A DNA stretch of 64,000 nucleotides from Octopus vulgaris (lineage: Eukaryota). The translations under genes were made by a program, and so were the position numbers. A model generated the notes under the pieces. The model was not told the origin of the DNA, searched no databases, and saw only the letters and a list, made by a program, of their open reading frames with translations. The stretch is taken from assembly GCA_951406725.2 (NCBI GenBank), contig OX597818.1, positions 32,736,001 through 32,800,000 on the forward strand, read 5' to 3'. Below, piece after piece: positions 3,199-48,006 of the stretch (the first letter of the stretch is position 1; each line of letters opens with the position of its first letter).

Positions 3199-4064
3199 CT
3201 CTCTTTTACTCTCTTACTTGTTTCAGTCATTTGACTGTGGCCATGCTGGATCACCGCCTTTTGTCGAGCAAATCGACCCCGGGACTTATTCTTTGGAAGC
3301 CTAGTATTTATTCTATCGGTCTCTTTCTCTGAACCGCTAAGTTACGGGGACGTAAACACACAAGCATCGGTTGTCAAGCGATGTTGGGGTGACAAACACA
3401 GACACAAAAACATATACACACACATACATACATACACACATACACACACACACACACACACACACACACACACATATATATATATATATATATATACATA
3501 ATAAATAGGGTAATAATAAATTATTATTACCAGTAGCCTAGCACAAAAAACGAATTAGTCATTAGACTATATATTATTCATATAGAAATACAATAAGAGA
3601 CTTCCAAATAGGAAAGCGTTGTGCTAGAGAGAGCAGTAGAAATCTCAAAAACTACAAAAAGGATAAATTCTCGAAAGGAATGAAAATTAAAAACGTTTAC
3701 CATCTCAACTATTTCCTAGACCATGGTTTCTAACTATTTCCAGCAAAAAAAAATATTAAACGTTTTTAATTTTCTTTCCTTTCGAGAATTTATCCTTTTT
3801 TTTGTGGTTTTTGAGATTTCTACTGCTCTCTCTAGCACAACGCTTTCCTATTTGAAAGTCTCTTATGTATATATATATATATATATATATACATTTATAC
3901 GACGGGCTTCTTTTAGTTTCCGTCTACCAAATCCGCTCACAAGGCCTTGGTCGGCCCGAGGCTATAGTAGAAGACACTTGCCCAAGGTGCCACGCAGCGG
4001 GACTGAACCCGGAACCATGTGGTTGGTAAGCAAGCTACTTATCACACAGCCACTCCTACGCCTA
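3199..4064 (-). mobile_element. SINE family A, split in its internal microsatellite by a fold-back insertion
   Basis: 3' half at 3199-3420, 5' half at 3895-4064. Confidence 0.9.
3500..3866. repeat. Fold-back insertion (arms 3593-3699 / 3757-3866) in (TA)n
   Basis: ATAAGAGACTTCCAAATAGG...AAACGTTTA is the reverse complement of TAAACGTTTT...GTCTCTTAT with few mismatches; (TA)n on both sides. Confidence 0.9.
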
Positions 4065-4409
4065 ATAATACGTAAAATAATAATGTTTTTAAAAAATTTT
4101 TCAACGGTGTCACTCCAAGTAGATAAACCTATAAAAAGGAATTTTAAAATATTGGGTTTACAAAATGATTTCATTTTCGTATATGCATTTATATGTTTTT
4201 ATGTGCTAACGTTTTCAAGAAATGCATATTGTGATATTGTTGAACACTTGGAATCTAATGGAACAAGTTGATGTTAAAAATTGTGATGGTGATGAGAATC
4301 AGTGGTAGAAAGAACAATTGGGTGAAGGATGGGGCGCAGAAGGGAGAGGAGAAAGGAGAGGAGGAAGGTGAGTAGAATAGAAGTCTTGCAAAAACTCATT
4401 TCGATTATC

Positions 4410-4910
4410 ATGTTGATGATGATGATGATGATGATGATGATAATGGCGTCGACGATGACGACGACGACGATGATGATGACGATGAATGTTAAAGGTTTAT
4501 AAATATCTTTAGAAAACAATCCAGATTTCCAATATCCTGACATTATCCTACAAGAAAGCCACCACCACCATCATCATCATCATCATCATCCTCTTTCTTC
4601 TACTCCTTATCTTCCCCTTCCTTCCACTCCTCCCCTCCTCTTCGTCTTCGTCTTCGTCATCTTTGTCATCATCATCATCACCTCCATTGTCACCACCACT
4701 TCCATCATCAACCTCATCATAATCATCATAATCATCATCATCATCATCATCATCTTCGTCGTGATTTTCGTCGCCATTGTCATGAGCGTCATTTACCATC
4801 ACTATCACCATAATCATCATCGTCGTCACCACCACCACCACCACCACAACCACCATCATCATCATCATCATCGCCGCCGCTATCACTATCACTATAGTCA
4901 ACGTCAACAT
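4410..4910. repeat. Compound trinucleotide low-complexity tract (GAT/GAC/CAT/CAC)
   Basis: Direct inspection. Confidence 0.9.
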
Positions 4911-6088
4911 TATCCTCACCTTTATCCTCTTTTAATATTTAATACATTTATTTTTTGTTTCTTTCTCAATAAATGAAATCGCCTCAAGATTGTATTAATT
5001 TTTTTCTAAATGGTTTGCAGTAAATTTAGAAGCTCCTGTTTTTCTTGGCTGCATTGCTGTCACTAATACCGTTACTATTGCTGCAATTGTTGTTGTTGTT
5101 GTTGCTCTTGCTCTTGTTGCGCTTCTTCTATTGCTGTTGTTCATGTTGGTCTCTTTCTCTGTTGCATTTGTTACTACTGTCGCTGTTTCGCTACGTTTCT
5201 CTTACTAGTGCTGTCGAATTTCTTTAGATTTCTTCGTTGCTTGTTGTAGCAATGATTTTTTTTTTTTTTATTTCAATGATTTGGTGTTGTTGTTAATGAT
5301 TTGGGTGATGCTGTTGTAGATGATAAATATGCTGCAATTTAAAAAAAAAAACAAAAGAAAAACACAGAACTATTAATATTCTAGTTGTTGTTGTCGTTCA
5401 TTTTTGCATTTCAGAATTATCTATTGTGTTTATTTCTATATTATATAAACACATTTACGTACATGCGCATTATGCTTTTTTAAAGTAGGTATAAACTAAC
5501 AAATAAATAAACACACACATATATATACATATGTACATCGTGTATACATGTATGTGTATATGTCTGTGTATATGTGTTAAAAATGTATGTATGTACATAT
5601 ATGCCTTTTTATATGTTTTCTATTATCATATTGAGTTTATGCGGGTTGACATTGTCTTGTACAGATCTAGCGCAATGTTGCTGTTTCCAACCAGATGTTT
5701 ATTCTCACTGGTAAAGTTGGAATATATTCGGAAGCAAATGATAATAAATAATGAAATACTGCAATAACTAACTAAGTGGCAGATTCGTTAGTGCGTCGAG
5801 AATGTTAGGAGGAATTGCAACCGTGTTTTGTGACCTGCTACCACAACAGCTCCTTTATAGGATCCAGTTAGCTCAAGACATCATCAGGAGGAACCACGTC
5901 CGGTTTCGGCCCCTACTCCTCTACCGTTTTGACGTGGCGCCCCAACCTCCTTTCGAGGGTGTCTTCAGCTCTCGTGTTGAGTGCATGTCTTCTTTCTTCG
6001 TCTTTCTTCTGTTCCCTGGCCTCTTCGATGTAGCGTCAACGAGTGTCAGCCGGTGACTGACTGACTTGTCAAAGTTTCCCTTTAAATA

Positions 6089-6316
6089 CCTATTTCTTTA
6101 CTACCCACAAGGGGCTAAACACAGAGAGGACAAACAAGGACAGACAAACGGATTAAGTCGATTATATCGACCCCAGTGCGTAACTGGTACTTATTTAATC
6201 GACCCTGAAAGGATGAAAGGCAAAGTCGACCTCGGTGGAATTTGAACTCAGAACGTAGCGGCAGACGAAACACCGCTAAGCATTTCGTCCGGCGTGCTAA
6301 CGTTTCTGCCAGCTCG
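6089..6316 (-). mobile_element. SINE family B (GGCGGCGAGCTGGCAG head; GCCTTTCATCCTTTCGGGGTCGAT core)
   Basis: Matches the other family B copies; TAAATACCT duplicated on both sides. Confidence 0.9.
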
Positions 6317-45586: not shown

Positions 45587-46476
45587 TTGCATGTTTTTAT
45601 TCCTGTCTTCTATGTTGGCCTTTGTATTTGTTGTTATTTTCGTTGTTCATCTTACGTCAACCATAAAAGTTCAAGTAGCAGCCTGTTGGATTATTCCACT
45701 TATATTATTCAATGTGTCATTTCATTCTTTAAGAAGATGGAGATGACATGAGGGGACATTAGTTGCTATCGCTAGCAATTAGAGTGAAACTGTGGAAGCT
45801 CGTTCGATTGTAAATTTTCTGCTAGCTACAATGGCTTCTGTGTAGTTGATTTTAAATATTCTTTGATAGAAAAGCCCCCAATTCATCAACTGTCAGTGAT
45901 CCTTATTTGTTTAAGCCAATCTCCCAGGTTAAGGACCATATATGAATGCTTACCCAGTAAAAGACACGTAGTAAAATTACAATGGAAACCCCGCCACTCC
46001 CCAAAAGGGAAGAAAGAACGTATGCATACATTCTCACAAGTTATAAGAAAGTTGATGATAATAATAATTATGATAGTTTCAAATTTTGGCACAAGGCCAG
46101 AAATTTCGGAGGAGGGAGTTAAGTCGATTACGTCGAGTCCACTGTTCGACTGTAGTTAATCAATCGACTCCGAAAGGATGAAAGGCAAAGAACGGGAACA
46201 CCGACGAAATGCCACCGGGCGTTTTACCCGGTGTTCGAATGATTCTGCCAGGCTTACAGCCGTGATGATGATGACGATAATAATAATAATAATAATAATA
46301 ATAATAATAATAATAATAATAATAATAATAATCATAATCATTATTATTATTATTATTATTATTATTATTATTATTATTATTATTATTATTATTATTATTA
46401 TTATCATTATTATTATCATTATTATCATTATTATTATTATTATTATATATATATATATATATATATATATATATAT

Positions 46477-46640
46477 AAAACATACAGAAAATTGCACTAC
46501 TGGGCACTACACACATCATACGCAAAACATTTTTAATACAGTAACTACCAGAGCATCACAACAAATCTGAGCATATACCCAAGTCACACAGAGCTGCGCT
46601 CGGTAGTGAAGTGTAAGCACGCTATAAAAATAAAACTACT
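46477..46640 (+). mobile_element. Extreme 3' end of a Dong/R4-clade element with (AAT)n tail
   Basis: NIQKIALLGTTHIIRKTF, then 3'UTR and AATAAT. Confidence 0.75.
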
Positions 46641-46749
46641 GAATAATAATAATAATGACAACAACAACAACAACAATAAAAATGAAGTAATAATAAGATT
46701 TTTACACAGTAGTATGGCCAAGTGGAATACACGTCTCCTTCTAAAGCAT

Positions 46750-47765
46750 AGTAATGGGACGAGACAATCTAACATCAACATCTCCCCATTTCTCTTATGC
46801 ATTTCTCTTATGCATGGCACCGATCCCACTCTCAAACGAATTGAATAACACCAGGTATAAGTTCAAAGTTCATAATACGACAATAAACCATCTGTTTTAT
46901 ATGGACGATCTGAAGCTGTATTGCCGAGCTAGCAGGACTGCTAACAACTGTTACAGATTTTCAGCCATTACATCGGGATGGCCTTTGGCCTTGATAAGTG
47001 TGCTAAAGCAACTTTTGTAAAAGGTAAGCTCAGGCAAACAGCTTCCATTAAATTAGATACCTACGCTACTATCAAGGATAAACGAAGGAGATGGTATACA
47101 ATATGATACTGTGAAAGAGAAAAATAAGAAAGGAGTATTACAGAAGAATAAGACTCATACTGAAAACTGAACTCAACTCCAAAAATCGTATCGAAGCCAT
47201 TAACACCATGGCACTTCCAGTAGTCCAATAATGTTCTAACATCATTAACTGGAATCTTACAGGGCTCCAACGCCTGGACAGGAAGATAAGAAAACTACTA
47301 ACTTCTAAGAACATGCACCACCCAAAAGCAGGTGTTGATCGTCTTTACCTACCTATACGTAATGGGGTATGAGGAATGAAGCAGGTAGAAGTGAGCCATA
47401 ATGCCTCCACAGTAGCAATGAACAGGTACTTATATAGGGCAGAGAACTGGACGCTGCGGTTTGTGTGCAAACACTAAAGCAGCAAAAAGTCACCTTCTAT
47501 TGTCAAGGAACCTTTCAAATTCGCAAGAGAACTTGGCATTAACCCTGAATTAGATGAAGAACCTGGAACCACTGCCACATAACAAGCAAAATGGATCAAA
47601 CGGACTGCAATAAAAGAATGAGAAGAGAGAAATTGAGGAACAGTGGAGCCAGAAGCCTCTAAATGCTGATGTAGATCAAGCAACAACCCATCAGTGACTG
47701 AGAAGTTCAAGACTGAAAACAGAGACTGGAGTTTTCATATTGGTGGCACAAGATCAAAGCTTAAT
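46750..47765 (+). pseudogene. Dong/R4-clade reverse transcriptase relic
   Basis: INHLFYMDDLKLY...GMAFGLDKCAK...EYYRRIRLILKTELNSKNRIEAINTMALPV...MHHPKAGVDRLYLP...AQDQSL, with stops and frameshifts. Confidence 0.9.
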
Positions 47766-48006
47766 TGTCAACATTTTGTGTGTCTTCAACAGGATTGAGG
47801 CATATAGATTTAAAAGTATAGATTCGAAATTAAAAGAAGAGTGCCATTATAATCTTCTTTTAATTTTGACTCTATATCTTCTAGAGGAGTTACCTCAATC
47901 CTTATTATATTAACCAAAACGAAGTAGATTGACAAAATTATTCTTTTGAACCTGTTGAAGACAAACAAGATGTCGAAATATCGTTCGCAAGATGACAACG
48001 GCACTC
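47765..48006. mobile_element. Second locus of the ~150-bp hammerhead-bearing unit, as an inverted junction, abutting (ATT)n
   Basis: 47853-48006 is the reverse complement of the 12143 unit and 47765-47850 a deleted forward copy; GAAC CUGUUGAA GACA..UGUC GAAA UAUC GUUC at 47948-47986. Confidence 0.7.

What the first reader, a model, noticed from the sequence alone, without database searches (positions are those of the whole stretch)
3500..48006. Unrelated fold-back insertions share one architecture: microsatellite target, inverted arms, minimal hammerhead
Seen: seven inverted-repeat inserts with no apparent mutual sequence identity (3500-3866, 8335-8810, 15650-16360, 39262-39652, 43252-43687, 43699-44529, 47765-48006). 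Most sit in or beside (TA)n, (ATT)n or (GATA)n. Often one arm continues to the element end while the other is truncated. Most arms carry stem I - YYGANGA-like core - stem II - GAAA - self-complementary stem III (ACAGCUGU, ACGU, ACCGGU, ACUCAGAGU, AUAU) - UH - stem I. Established: Penelope-like elements (PLEs) carry minimal type-I hammerheads with palindromic stem III thought to act as dimers, and often insert with an inverted 5'-truncated terminal repeat. PLE RT (40-1115) and GIY-YIG (49133-49566) relics are in this window. Inference: a diverse, high-density set of tiny, mostly non-coding PLE-dependent ribozyme elements that land in microsatellites as hairpins.
Basis: partly seen in the sequence, partly recalled or inferred. 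Interest (0 to 1): 0.82.

Follow-up and report, generated by a model that had tools for sequence, protein, structure and literature searches.

The report
Penelope fold-backs and a hammerhead SINE
The seven hairpin-shaped inserts are real and are likely ordinary footprints of Penelope-type jumping genes, but one belongs to a very abundant short repeat with a likely tRNA-derived promoter and a predicted self-cutting RNA, which would spread by borrowing the Penelope enzyme.

Summary
All 7 fold-backs exist (six with arms 92-99.5% alike). Each has at least one end at a microsatellite, and 5 of 7 have a 34-93 nt tail on one arm. This layout is published for Penelope-like elements (PLEs), and the tail is explained by two internal RT start sites. 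Hammerhead-like motifs, all reading outwards, pass my descriptor in 4 of 7 inserts; 3500-3866 has none. The inserts are not one class. 43699-44529 ends in the C-terminus of a Hydra-clade PLE protein (15 of 22 residues match Hydra-1_Obim by eye), so it is a truncated coding element. 47765-48006 is a 150-nt retrozyme-like unit with a core defect. 15650-16360 is the notable one. Contigs of 4 public runs (10,211-16,230 laid per run) show a family with an A/B-box head joined to a complete minimal hammerhead. It is likely a PLE-mobilised SINE. Its closest known kin is schistosome Sm-alpha. My 10 literature searches found no description, but Repbase and the 1994 octopus SINE paper were out of reach. 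Covariation, cleavage, transcription and the partner element are unshown.

The parts
3500..3866 (.). E1: fold-back (arms 3593-3699 and 3757-3866) with a tail of about 93 nt at 3500-3592; no hammerhead found; splits the inner (TA)n of a SINE copy
   Evidence: the SINE halves on either side align to adjacent parts of an intact copy at 164/182 and 149/161
8336..8810 (.). E2: left arm 8336-8462 plus interior 8463-8686 read as one minus-strand copy; inverted arm 8687-8810 starts at the ribozyme core; no tail
   Evidence: only the left copy has the 5' strand of stem I
8414..8465 (-). E2 hammerhead-like motif: 4-bp stem I, core with U4->C, 7-bp stem II, 8-nt palindromic stem III, predicted cleavage after 8418; Hydra-like style
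   Evidence: 0 of 300 shuffles reach the score; compared by eye with File S2 of PMC8557442
15650..16135 (-). E3 full-length copy: tRNA-like head (16058-16135, B box at 16080), (AAT)n about 15835-16057, hammerhead region, tail of about 40 nt (15650-15689); lies in a (GATA)n tract
   Evidence: family letters
15733..15778 (-). E3 left minimal hammerhead: U4->C, 2 nt lost from stem I, stem II intact, palindrome ACGU
16132..16349 (+). E3 inverted, 5'-truncated copy; joins the left copy through a 4-nt overlap at 16132-16135; hammerhead 16259-16304, core 16264-16270
39262..39705 (.). E4: arms 39262-39404 and 39509-39652, short inverted duplications at the centre, tail 39653-39705 ending at (TAC)n; possibly a tandem unit of about 200 nt
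   Evidence: the tail resembles the start of the left copy only weakly (67 of 2000 shuffles reach the score)
39358..39394 (-). E4 minimal hammerhead-like motif with the U3-A8 core variant, 5-bp stem II, palindrome AAUU, 3-bp stem I
   Evidence: 1 of 300 shuffles; variant described in PMC4209133
43253..43687 (.). E5: near-perfect fold-back (arms 43287-43479 and 43495-43687, 192 of 193 identical), tail of about 34 nt on the left; non-conforming hammerhead-like core at 43509-43547 and its mirror
43701..44528 (.). E6: 3' end of a Hydra-clade PLE folded back on itself; arms 43701-44084 and 44095-44460, 10-nt loop, tail 44461-44528; (TA)n on both sides
44030..44097 (-). E6 coding remnant: C-terminal LN-x-R-x-E...C-x-H-x-x-KF motif of a Hydra-type endonuclease, mirrored on + from 44097
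   Evidence: only 2 matches in six frames, both in E6; 0 of 100 shuffled windows; by-eye match to File S7 of PMC8557442
44368..44430 (+). E6 hammerhead-like motif (mirror at 43729-43791 on -): 6-bp stem I, U4->C, extra base before GAA, stem III ACUC-A-GAGU
   Evidence: the same stem III and cleavage base are listed for Penelope-3_HM in File S2
47765..48006 (.). E7: one unit of about 150 nt (+, 47853-48006, ending at (ATT)n) head-to-head with an internally deleted copy (-, 47765-47846); hammerhead-like motif 47947-47987 with A6->U
12140..12447 (-). Second locus of the E7 family: two head-to-tail units of about 150 nt plus the start of a third, (ATT)n on both sides; A6->U in both units
2..1170 (+). 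Decayed PLE ORF relic (end of RT to CxC linker), Hydra-like by eye; interrupted by an insert at 156-594
   Evidence: compared by eye with File S7; no database hit
49134..49566 (+). Decayed C-terminal GIY-YIG relic (Neptune-like by eye) and 3' end, followed by (TA)n
   Evidence: compared by eye with Naiad/Neptune-type endonuclease sequences; no database hit

Best explanation
The seven inserts are real head-to-head fold-backs beside microsatellites, likely made by Penelope-like RT-endonuclease proteins from a mix of templates: one truncated coding element, a retrozyme-like unit, and a high-copy repeat that is likely a tRNA-headed SINE with a predicted hammerhead. Steps. (1) The endonuclease nicks AT-rich simple repeats (shown in vitro for an anole PLE; inferred here from the targets). 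(2) RT primes on the nick and starts at one of two internal sites near the RNA 3' end, so the two arms end 34-93 nt apart (two start sites shown for the anole element; inferred here). (3) The new strand stops early, snaps back on a match of about 4 nt and copies itself, giving the second arm (inferred). (4) The end is joined to the other side of the microsatellite (inferred). The hammerhead marks the 3' repeat of the template and is predicted to cut only as a dimer through its palindromic stem III; cutting is probably not needed for insertion. E3 is predicted to be transcribed by Pol III from its head and to be handled in trans by a PLE protein that recognises its hammerhead-bearing 3' part.
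For: Geometry, tails and targets: matching. All 5 descriptor hits inside the inserts, and both E3 motifs, read outwards, as a head-to-head PLE pair predicts. E6 matches the Hydra clade in the C-terminal motif (15 of 22 residues to Hydra-1_Obim, 11 of 20 to Hydra-1_Amil, read by eye), ribozyme style and (TA)n target. Snap-back: the E6 loop is closed by a 4-bp stem and reads in frame with the coding remnant; the E3 junction has a 4-nt overlap. Both E3 arms share two changes the family majority lacks (2 nt lost from stem I; A at 16281 where 94-97% of depth reads G), so they derive from one template. E3 family in 4 of 4 runs: C3 restored in 94.5-99.1% of depth; a 5-bp stem II from the majority letters; 208-300 loose ends per run supply the 2 nt that complete a 5-bp stem I; N7 varies (about 15-31% A or C) while no other position of the core box or GAAA has a listed variant; 158-212 loose ends per run give a consensus A box preceded by an 18-nt palindrome; 4 contigs in 3 runs join head to hammerhead region with 31 or more letters on each side; opposite-strand joints at the 5' end occur in 3 of 4 runs. 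Catalysis dispensable: hammerhead mutants of the anole element still insert in vitro, and all 4 E7-family copies carry A6->U.
Against: No database search tied any arm or relic to a PLE protein; the protein links are by-eye comparisons with one paper's supplement. Only 1 of 7 inserts is linked to an ORF. E1 has no hammerhead and E5 does not conform. No compensatory pair change was seen in E3 or E7. Rfam and ARAGORN give no tRNA match for the E3 head (a control SINE head also fails), and its alignment to neighbouring SINE heads does not beat shuffles (scores 45-48 against 46-57). No autonomous PLE sharing E3's 3' part was found. Changes shared by both arms could also come from gene conversion after insertion. 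No listed contig spans the E3 junction region, no long reads were laid, and there is no RNA evidence. Arkhipova 2013 saw no cross-mobilisation between PLE families in a rotifer.
Confidence: 0.75

Rival explanations
1. One reading: all seven are members of tiny non-coding, non-autonomous ribozyme families that land as hairpins.
For: E3 and E7 do look non-autonomous, E4 weakly; the arms of E1, E4, E5 and E7 show no recognisable coding remnant.
Against: E6 carries a PLE C-terminus. The length and layout of E2 and E5 fit 5'-truncated 3' ends, which is how Cervera 2014 read opposite-strand hammerhead pairs. E1 lacks a hammerhead.
Confidence: 0.12
2. E3 is an ordinary LINE-dependent SINE that captured a PLE 3' repeat as a passenger; its inversion came from LINE twin priming or later rearrangement.
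For: All well-studied SINEs use LINE partners (established knowledge). Opposite-strand joints are few (1-4 contigs per row). LINEs are the largest class in an octopus genome.
Against: The hammerhead is kept complete in the majority letters of 4 runs. The locus duplicates the 3' end in inverted form with a one-sided tail, whereas twin priming inverts without duplicating the 3' end (recalled). An 18-nt 5' palindrome like that of a rotifer pLTR is present.
Confidence: 0.2
3. Both arms are made separately: a dimeric PLE protein primes on both nicked strands using two RNAs, possibly held together by the hammerhead dimer, and the two cDNAs join head to head. This differs from the best explanation only in step 3.
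For: The anole protein cuts and extends both strands and is predicted to be a dimer; two start sites would give arms of two lengths directly.
Against: Both E3 arms share private changes absent from the family majority, which two RNAs from a large family would rarely share unless they come from one locus. E5 and E6 arms start 10-15 nt apart, as a snap-back loop would give.
Confidence: 0.25
4. They are MITEs or foldback DNA transposons with long terminal inverted repeats that insert at TA.
For: Long inverted arms, TA-rich flanks, no ORF in most; TIR elements are abundant in an octopus genome. Not excluded for E1.
Against: One-sided tails, outward-reading hammerheads, a PLE peptide in E6, a direct-tandem locus of the E7 family, and E3 contigs that mostly show a single orientation.
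Confidence: 0.06
5. The palindromes are assembly or amplification chimeras.
For: E5 and E6 arms are 99-99.5% alike; no read or contig was shown to span them here; Craig 2021 notes such structures trouble assemblies.
Against: Four inserts have arms 4-8% apart; E6 arms differ by 3 substitutions and 3 indels; the symmetry stops at defined ends with one-sided tails and unrelated flanks; opposite-strand joints occur in independent runs for E3.
Confidence: 0.03

Closest known systems
Penelope-like element insertions with inverted pLTR and tail (PMC8557442, PMC3846280, PMC11167929)
   Same: Head-to-head inverted 5'-truncated copy, optional 3' tail on one arm, palindromes at the inverted junction, microsatellite or AT-rich targets.
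   Different: Here the inserts are only 240-830 nt; three tails (53, 68, 93 nt) are longer than the published 30-40 nt; at least two templates look non-coding.
Hydra clade of PLEs, including Hydra-1_Obim of Octopus bimaculoides (PMC8557442, section 11, Files S1, S2, S7)
   Same: E6 has the C-terminal CxH motif, a ribozyme with a long palindromic stem III and an extra base before GAA, a 3' end about 35 nt after the ribozyme, and a (TA)n target. E2 has the same ribozyme style.
   Different: E6 is a different family from Hydra-1_Obim (different 3' UTR and stem III by eye; five 12-nt arm motifs from E1, E2, E4, E5 and E6 have 0 matches in the supplement text), is 5'-truncated, and has U4->C.
Minimal PLE hammerheads (PMC4209133; Lunse et al., not held, seen only as cited in PMC6765202)
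   Same: Short stem I, extra base after A9, G10.1-C11.1, palindromic 15.2-16.2, U3-A8 variant (E4), pairs 100-700 bp apart on opposite strands.
   Different: Most copies here are damaged; activity was not tested.
Sm-alpha and Sj-alpha SINE-like elements of Schistosoma (as reviewed in PMC6765202)
   Same: Pol III-type promoter followed by a type-I hammerhead in a short non-coding repeat.
   Different: Those are described as often tandem, with the ribozyme freeing monomers, and the passages I saw name no PLE partner. E3 has a minimal PLE-type ribozyme, an inner (AAT)n, and a PLE-type inverted insertion with a tail.
Non-LTR retrozymes (PMC7229834; bioRxiv 10.64898/2026.07.22.740005)
   Same: E7 family: non-coding unit of about 150 nt with a type-I hammerhead motif in head-to-tail tandem; proposed to be non-autonomous PLE derivatives.
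   Different: The unit is slightly shorter than the 170-400 nt RNAs reported, the core has A6->U in 4 of 4 copies, and one locus is head-to-head.
Octopus tRNA-derived SINEs of Ohshima and Okada 1994 (not read; seen as a citation, which name OR1 and OR2 as CORE-SINEs; the name OK for the third is recalled)
   Same: tRNA-derived head, high copy number, likely the same animal group.
   Different: Could not be compared. E3 may be one of these families already named, without its hammerhead having been noticed.

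Membership tests
PLE insertion (all seven) | Inverted 5'-truncated copy head to head with the main copy | tested here: met
   7 of 7 are fold-backs; direction is fixed by outward-reading motifs in E2-E7 and undetermined in E1
PLE insertion (all seven) | Optional 3' tail on one arm | tested here: met
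   5 of 7 (34-93 nt); none in E2; not readable in E7
PLE insertion (all seven) | Type-I hammerhead near the 3' end | tested here: inconclusive
   4 of 7 by descriptor; E3 complete only in the family majority; E5 non-conforming; E1 absent; no Rfam hit
PLE insertion (all seven) | Microsatellite or AT-rich target | tested here: met
   10 of 14 ends within 2 nt against a 2.3% background within 5 nt; E1 splits the inner (TA)n of a SINE
PLE insertion (all seven) | Link to an RT plus GIY-YIG ORF | tested here: inconclusive
   Met for E6 only, by eye and by motif count; the E2 peptide is unclear; database searches were blank; no genome held
PLE insertion (all seven) | Ribozyme self-cleavage as a dimer | not testable with these tools
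   Needs an in vitro assay
Hydra clade (E6) | C-terminal CxH motif after the conserved N of the endonuclease | tested here: met
Hydra clade (E6) | Hammerhead with long palindromic stem III; (TA)n target | tested here: met
Hydra clade (E6) | RWK and DKT motifs, CxCX5C linker, RT phylogeny | not testable with these tools
   The copy is truncated to about the last 30 codons
tRNA-derived SINE (E3) | Internal A and B boxes at the 5' end | tested here: met
   B box at 16080 in the window; consensus A box only in the loose-end consensus of 4 runs, agreement 0.57-0.59; box patterns recalled
tRNA-derived SINE (E3) | Detectable homology to a tRNA | tested here: inconclusive
   No ARAGORN or Rfam hit, but the control SINE head also fails; the family majority sequence was not scanned
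tRNA-derived SINE (E3) | Short, non-coding, dispersed, high copy | tested here: met
   About 270 nt; 10,211-16,230 contigs laid per run, summed depth up to millions against about 6-120 for single contigs (not a copy number); heterogeneous 3' flanks
tRNA-derived SINE (E3) | Pol III transcription | not testable with these tools
   No RNA run held more than 0.07 of the words
tRNA-derived SINE (E3) | 3' end shared with an autonomous partner | not testable with these tools
   No genome; no match elsewhere in the window; no metagenome match
Non-LTR retrozyme (E7 family) | Head-to-tail non-coding units, each with a type-I hammerhead motif | tested here: met
   12140-12447, two units of about 150 nt
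Non-LTR retrozyme (E7 family) | Intact catalytic core | tested here: not met
   A6->U in 4 of 4 copies; U4->A as well in the two tandem units
Non-LTR retrozyme (E7 family) | Circular RNA product | not testable with these tools
   No RNA data for this family
MITE or foldback DNA transposon | Symmetric terminal inverted repeats reaching both ends | tested here: not met
   One-sided tails in 5 of 7; only E2 is symmetric

The most novel reading that the evidence does not exclude
E3 is a Penelope-dependent SINE: a Pol III, tRNA-headed repeat with a dimer-dependent minimal hammerhead that is copied and inserted by a PLE RT-GIY-YIG protein rather than a LINE, has reached very high copy number in several related animals, and sometimes inserts as a self-primed hairpin. 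It would extend the SINE-partner rule to a third retrotransposon class and supply thousands of dated insertions for reading the PLE integration mechanism.
Probability: 0.5. Interest if true: 0.7.

Novelty: new variant of a known kind. Interest (0 to 1): 0.5.

Why it matters
The shared architecture is not new: it is the published signature of PLE insertion. Two things here could matter. First, if E3 is mobilised by a PLE, it is a SINE whose partner is not a LINE, at a copy number that makes it a visible part of these genomes. My 10 searches of the held library found no such element described beyond the schistosome SINE-like repeats. Second, how PLEs make their inverted ends is named as an open question in Craig 2021 and left open in Frangieh 2024. 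A very large, short, low-divergence family lets one test snap-back copying against two-ended priming by comparing the two arms at diagnostic sites. It also lets one test whether ribozyme catalysis is under selection: E3 keeps its core, while the E7 copies lack it.

Tried and rejected
No whole genome is held, so no genome-wide count, clustering or ORF link was possible. Rfam: the whole-window list showed 150 of 239 matches, mostly miRNA hairpin look-alikes and no hammerhead; targeted scans gave no hammerhead or tRNA. ARAGORN found 0 genes. A first, stricter descriptor gave 2 hits, one in E7. Protein searches found nothing: E6 peptide, Pfam on 10 pieces (best E 0.046, unrelated families), GIY-YIG relic, RT relic. 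These pieces are short or decayed, so the blanks are weak evidence. A 26-nt E3 pattern had 0 matches in metagenome contigs. Earlier findings of the scan: 0 in 4 look-ups. E3 head against other SINE heads: collinear but not above shuffles. Tails of E1, E3, E5 and E6 as the start of a next tandem unit: rejected (844-1996 of 2000 shuffles as good); E4 weak (67 of 2000). Minimum-energy folds of monomers and homodimers do not show the hammerhead fold reliably and had no control, so they are not used. The E2 interior peptide resembles endonuclease C-termini only faintly: inconclusive. E1 as a Naiad 3' end: one 12-nt motif absent from the published consensus text, not settled. Lunse et al. (PMC5785218) is not held. 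Descriptor hits at 16881 and 28277 lie outside the seven inserts and were not pursued.

Full report
Setting. The window is 36.7% GC, rich in microsatellites and SINE copies. It looks like an octopus genome: this rests on repeats I recall and on the by-eye likeness of E6 to Hydra-1_Obim, not on a database hit. No whole genome is held. The seven inserts are called E1-E7 in window order.

Observation. All seven fold-backs are present. Arm identity is 92-99.5% for E1-E6; E7 has only a short gapped match. They do not match one another. Ten of 14 ends lie within 2 nt of a microsatellite, against 2.3% of other positions within 5 nt; the boundaries were partly drawn at those tracts, and E5 and E6 share one. 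E1 is a clear insertion: it splits the inner (TA)n of a SINE whose halves match adjacent parts of an intact copy at 90% and 93%. E5 and E6 also lie between two SINE halves, but these match at 82% and 73%, so they may not be one copy. Five inserts have a one-sided tail of 34-93 nt.

Ribozymes. A relaxed type-I descriptor gave 7 hits in the window, 5 inside the inserts: E2 left, E4 left, E6 both arms, E7 right. All read outwards, and 0-1 of 300 shuffles per insert reached the observed score. The descriptor was written after I had read the inserts, so the control is optimistic. E2 and E6 have U4->C, E7 has A6->U, and E4 has the U3-A8 variant described in schistosome PLEs. E3 has a 2-bp stem I in both arms, E5 does not conform, and E1 has nothing. 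Rfam finds none of them.

The architecture is known. Craig 2021 (PMC8557442; I saw the abstract, passages, sections 11 and 12, and parts 1, 2, 52, 53, 55, 56 of 59 of the supplement plus searches in it) shows the inverted 5'-truncated copy, the 30-40 bp tail and (TA)n targets. Cervera 2014 (PMC4209133; parts 1-2 of 4) reports minimal hammerhead pairs 100-700 bp apart on opposite strands and reads the dispersed motifs as truncated PLEs. Arkhipova 2013 (PMC3846280; passages) reports head-to-head inverted pLTRs, junction palindromes, self-priming as an interpretation, and pLTRs acting in trans. Frangieh 2024 (PMC11167929; parts 1-2 of 4) shows cutting at AT-rich DNA, two internal RT start sites that explain the tail, and insertion without ribozyme catalysis.

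E6 is a truncated coding element. Its minus strand reads LNTRTELFGSCPHVTKFLLRFW from 44082. Read by eye from File S7, Hydra-1_Obim ends with 15 of these 22 residues in register and Hydra-1_Amil with 11 of 20. The pattern occurs twice in the six frames of the window, once per arm, and in 0 of 100 shuffled windows (the pattern was drawn from the comparison). Its stem III and cleavage base equal those listed for Penelope-3_HM, and nearly all Hydra families target (TA)n. Database searches with the peptide were blank. E2's ribozyme has the same style, and its 224-nt interior belongs to the left copy; a coding remnant there is unclear.

The E7 family has a second locus at 12140-12447: two head-to-tail units of about 150 nt between (ATT)n tracts. 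That is the layout of non-LTR retrozymes (PMC7229834, passages; bioRxiv 10.64898/2026.07.22.740005, part 1 of 5 and passages). All 4 copies have A6->U, so the ribozyme is predicted dead in these copies. The same unit occurs as a direct tandem at one locus and head to head at another. E4 may be a similar 200-nt unit, on weak evidence (67 of 2000 shuffles).

E3 is the notable insert. Its left copy reads: tRNA-like head, (AAT)n, hammerhead region, tail. The right copy is an inverted, 5'-truncated version joined through a 4-nt overlap. Fourteen of 24 listed runs, coded as 5 organisms, hold 45-61% of its words. I laid 16060-16350 on 4 of them (X1, X3, X6, X12; organisms A-D): 15,798, 11,401, 16,230 and 10,211 contigs. 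The majority letters repair the window's damage: C3 in 94.5-99.1% of depth, a 5-bp stem II, and, from 208-300 loose ends per run, the 2 nt that complete a 5-bp stem I around core CUGAUGA and palindrome ACGU. N7 varies (A or C, about 15-31% of depth); no other position of the core box or of GAAA has a listed variant. Two CpG positions (11.1 and 15.2) decay in 6-16%. No compensatory change appears. At the 5' end, 158-212 loose ends per run agree (0.57-0.59) on a consensus A box preceded by an 18-nt palindrome; the B box is in the window. Of 32 listed pieces, 6 run from head towards the ribozyme: 4, in 3 runs, have 31 or more letters on both sides of the (AAT)n, and 2 in X6 fall short at 28. Most stop at or near stem I. 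3' flanks are heterogeneous from about 16347. Two of 15 listed joints are opposite-strand joints at the 5' end, in 3 of 4 runs, with 1-4 contigs each (52 joints not shown). Against: no tRNA model matches the head (a control SINE head fails too), no listed piece spans the stretch, and there is no RNA evidence.

Mechanism. Shown: geometry, tails, targets, the E6 peptide, the E7 tandem and the E3 family letters. Taken from published work on another PLE: nicking of AT-rich DNA, two internal start sites, dispensable catalysis. Inferred: that these apply here, that the second arm arises by snap-back copying, and that E3 is transcribed by Pol III and moved in trans by a PLE. Snap-back is favoured because the E6 loop is closed by a 4-bp stem and reads in frame with the coding remnant, the E3 junction has a 4-nt overlap, and both E3 arms share two changes absent from the family majority. 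Two-ended priming on RNAs from one locus, or gene conversion between arms, would also explain the shared changes.

Relics. The pieces at 2-1170 and 49134-49472 resemble Hydra-type RT/linker and Neptune-type endonuclease sequences in the supplement by eye. No search confirmed them, and nothing ties them to the arms.

Novelty. The closest known element to E3 is the schistosome Sm-alpha type, a Pol III promoter followed by a hammerhead (PMC6765202, passages). Ten literature searches and reading in PMC13282606 (part 1 of 3 and passages; 0 mentions of hammerhead), PMC6962438, PMC10886601, PMC4758252 and PMC4824008 (passages) found no description of a hammerhead-bearing or PLE-mobilised SINE in octopus. 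The library lacks most subscription papers and Repbase, and I did not see Ohshima and Okada 1994 or Lunse et al., so the family may already be named. Verdict: the general finding is a known PLE signature; E3 makes it a new variant of a known kind. Interest 0.5.

Noticed in passing
window 156-594: Insert with 41-nt terminal inverted repeats (93% alike) and three TTAGGG-like units inside; it interrupts the RT relic in mid-motif, so it is likely a MITE.
   Followed up: partly
window 28215-28360: Short inverted repeat enclosing a hammerhead-like motif at 28277 with a U3-A8 core, 3-bp stem II and 4-bp stem I; one of the 2 descriptor hits outside the seven inserts.
   Followed up: no
window 16881-16921: Second descriptor hit outside the inserts, in AT-rich sequence with no fold-back; probably chance.
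   Followed up: no
window 25162-25357: Eighth fold-back, 66-nt arms 95% alike, no microsatellite and no hammerhead seen.
   Followed up: partly
window 49664-50046: Old AT-rich fold-back (about 78% alike) just after the GIY-YIG relic.
   Followed up: no
window 49548-49615: The last 15 nt or so of the GIY-YIG relic's 3' end reappear inverted on the far side of the (TA)n tract, a tail-to-tail pair.
   Followed up: no
window 53644-54087: Inverted ends of 66 nt around six 43-nt tandem units and a SINE fragment; a piece of the same unit lies at 48900-48938.
   Followed up: no
window 55779-56064: Two copies of the common SINE's tRNA-like half lie head to head, 84% alike.
   Followed up: no
window 27581-27877 (-): 99-codon frame that looks like a mariner-type transposase C-terminus (motif recalled; no Pfam support), between inverted stretches 27404-27490 and 28388-28466.
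   Followed up: partly
window 21647-21892 (-): 82-codon frame resembling a restriction-like endonuclease C-terminus of a non-LTR retrotransposon (recalled; no Pfam hit).
   Followed up: partly
window 9702-10376 and 12570-13422: Tandem arrays (157 nt x 4.4; 190 nt x 4.5) built from part of a common SINE.
   Followed up: no
window 3530-3632: The E1 tail folds back on the end of its arm into a multi-branched structure closed by a stem of about 10 bp; it may mark the RT start region of a ribozyme-free PLE.
   Followed up: partly
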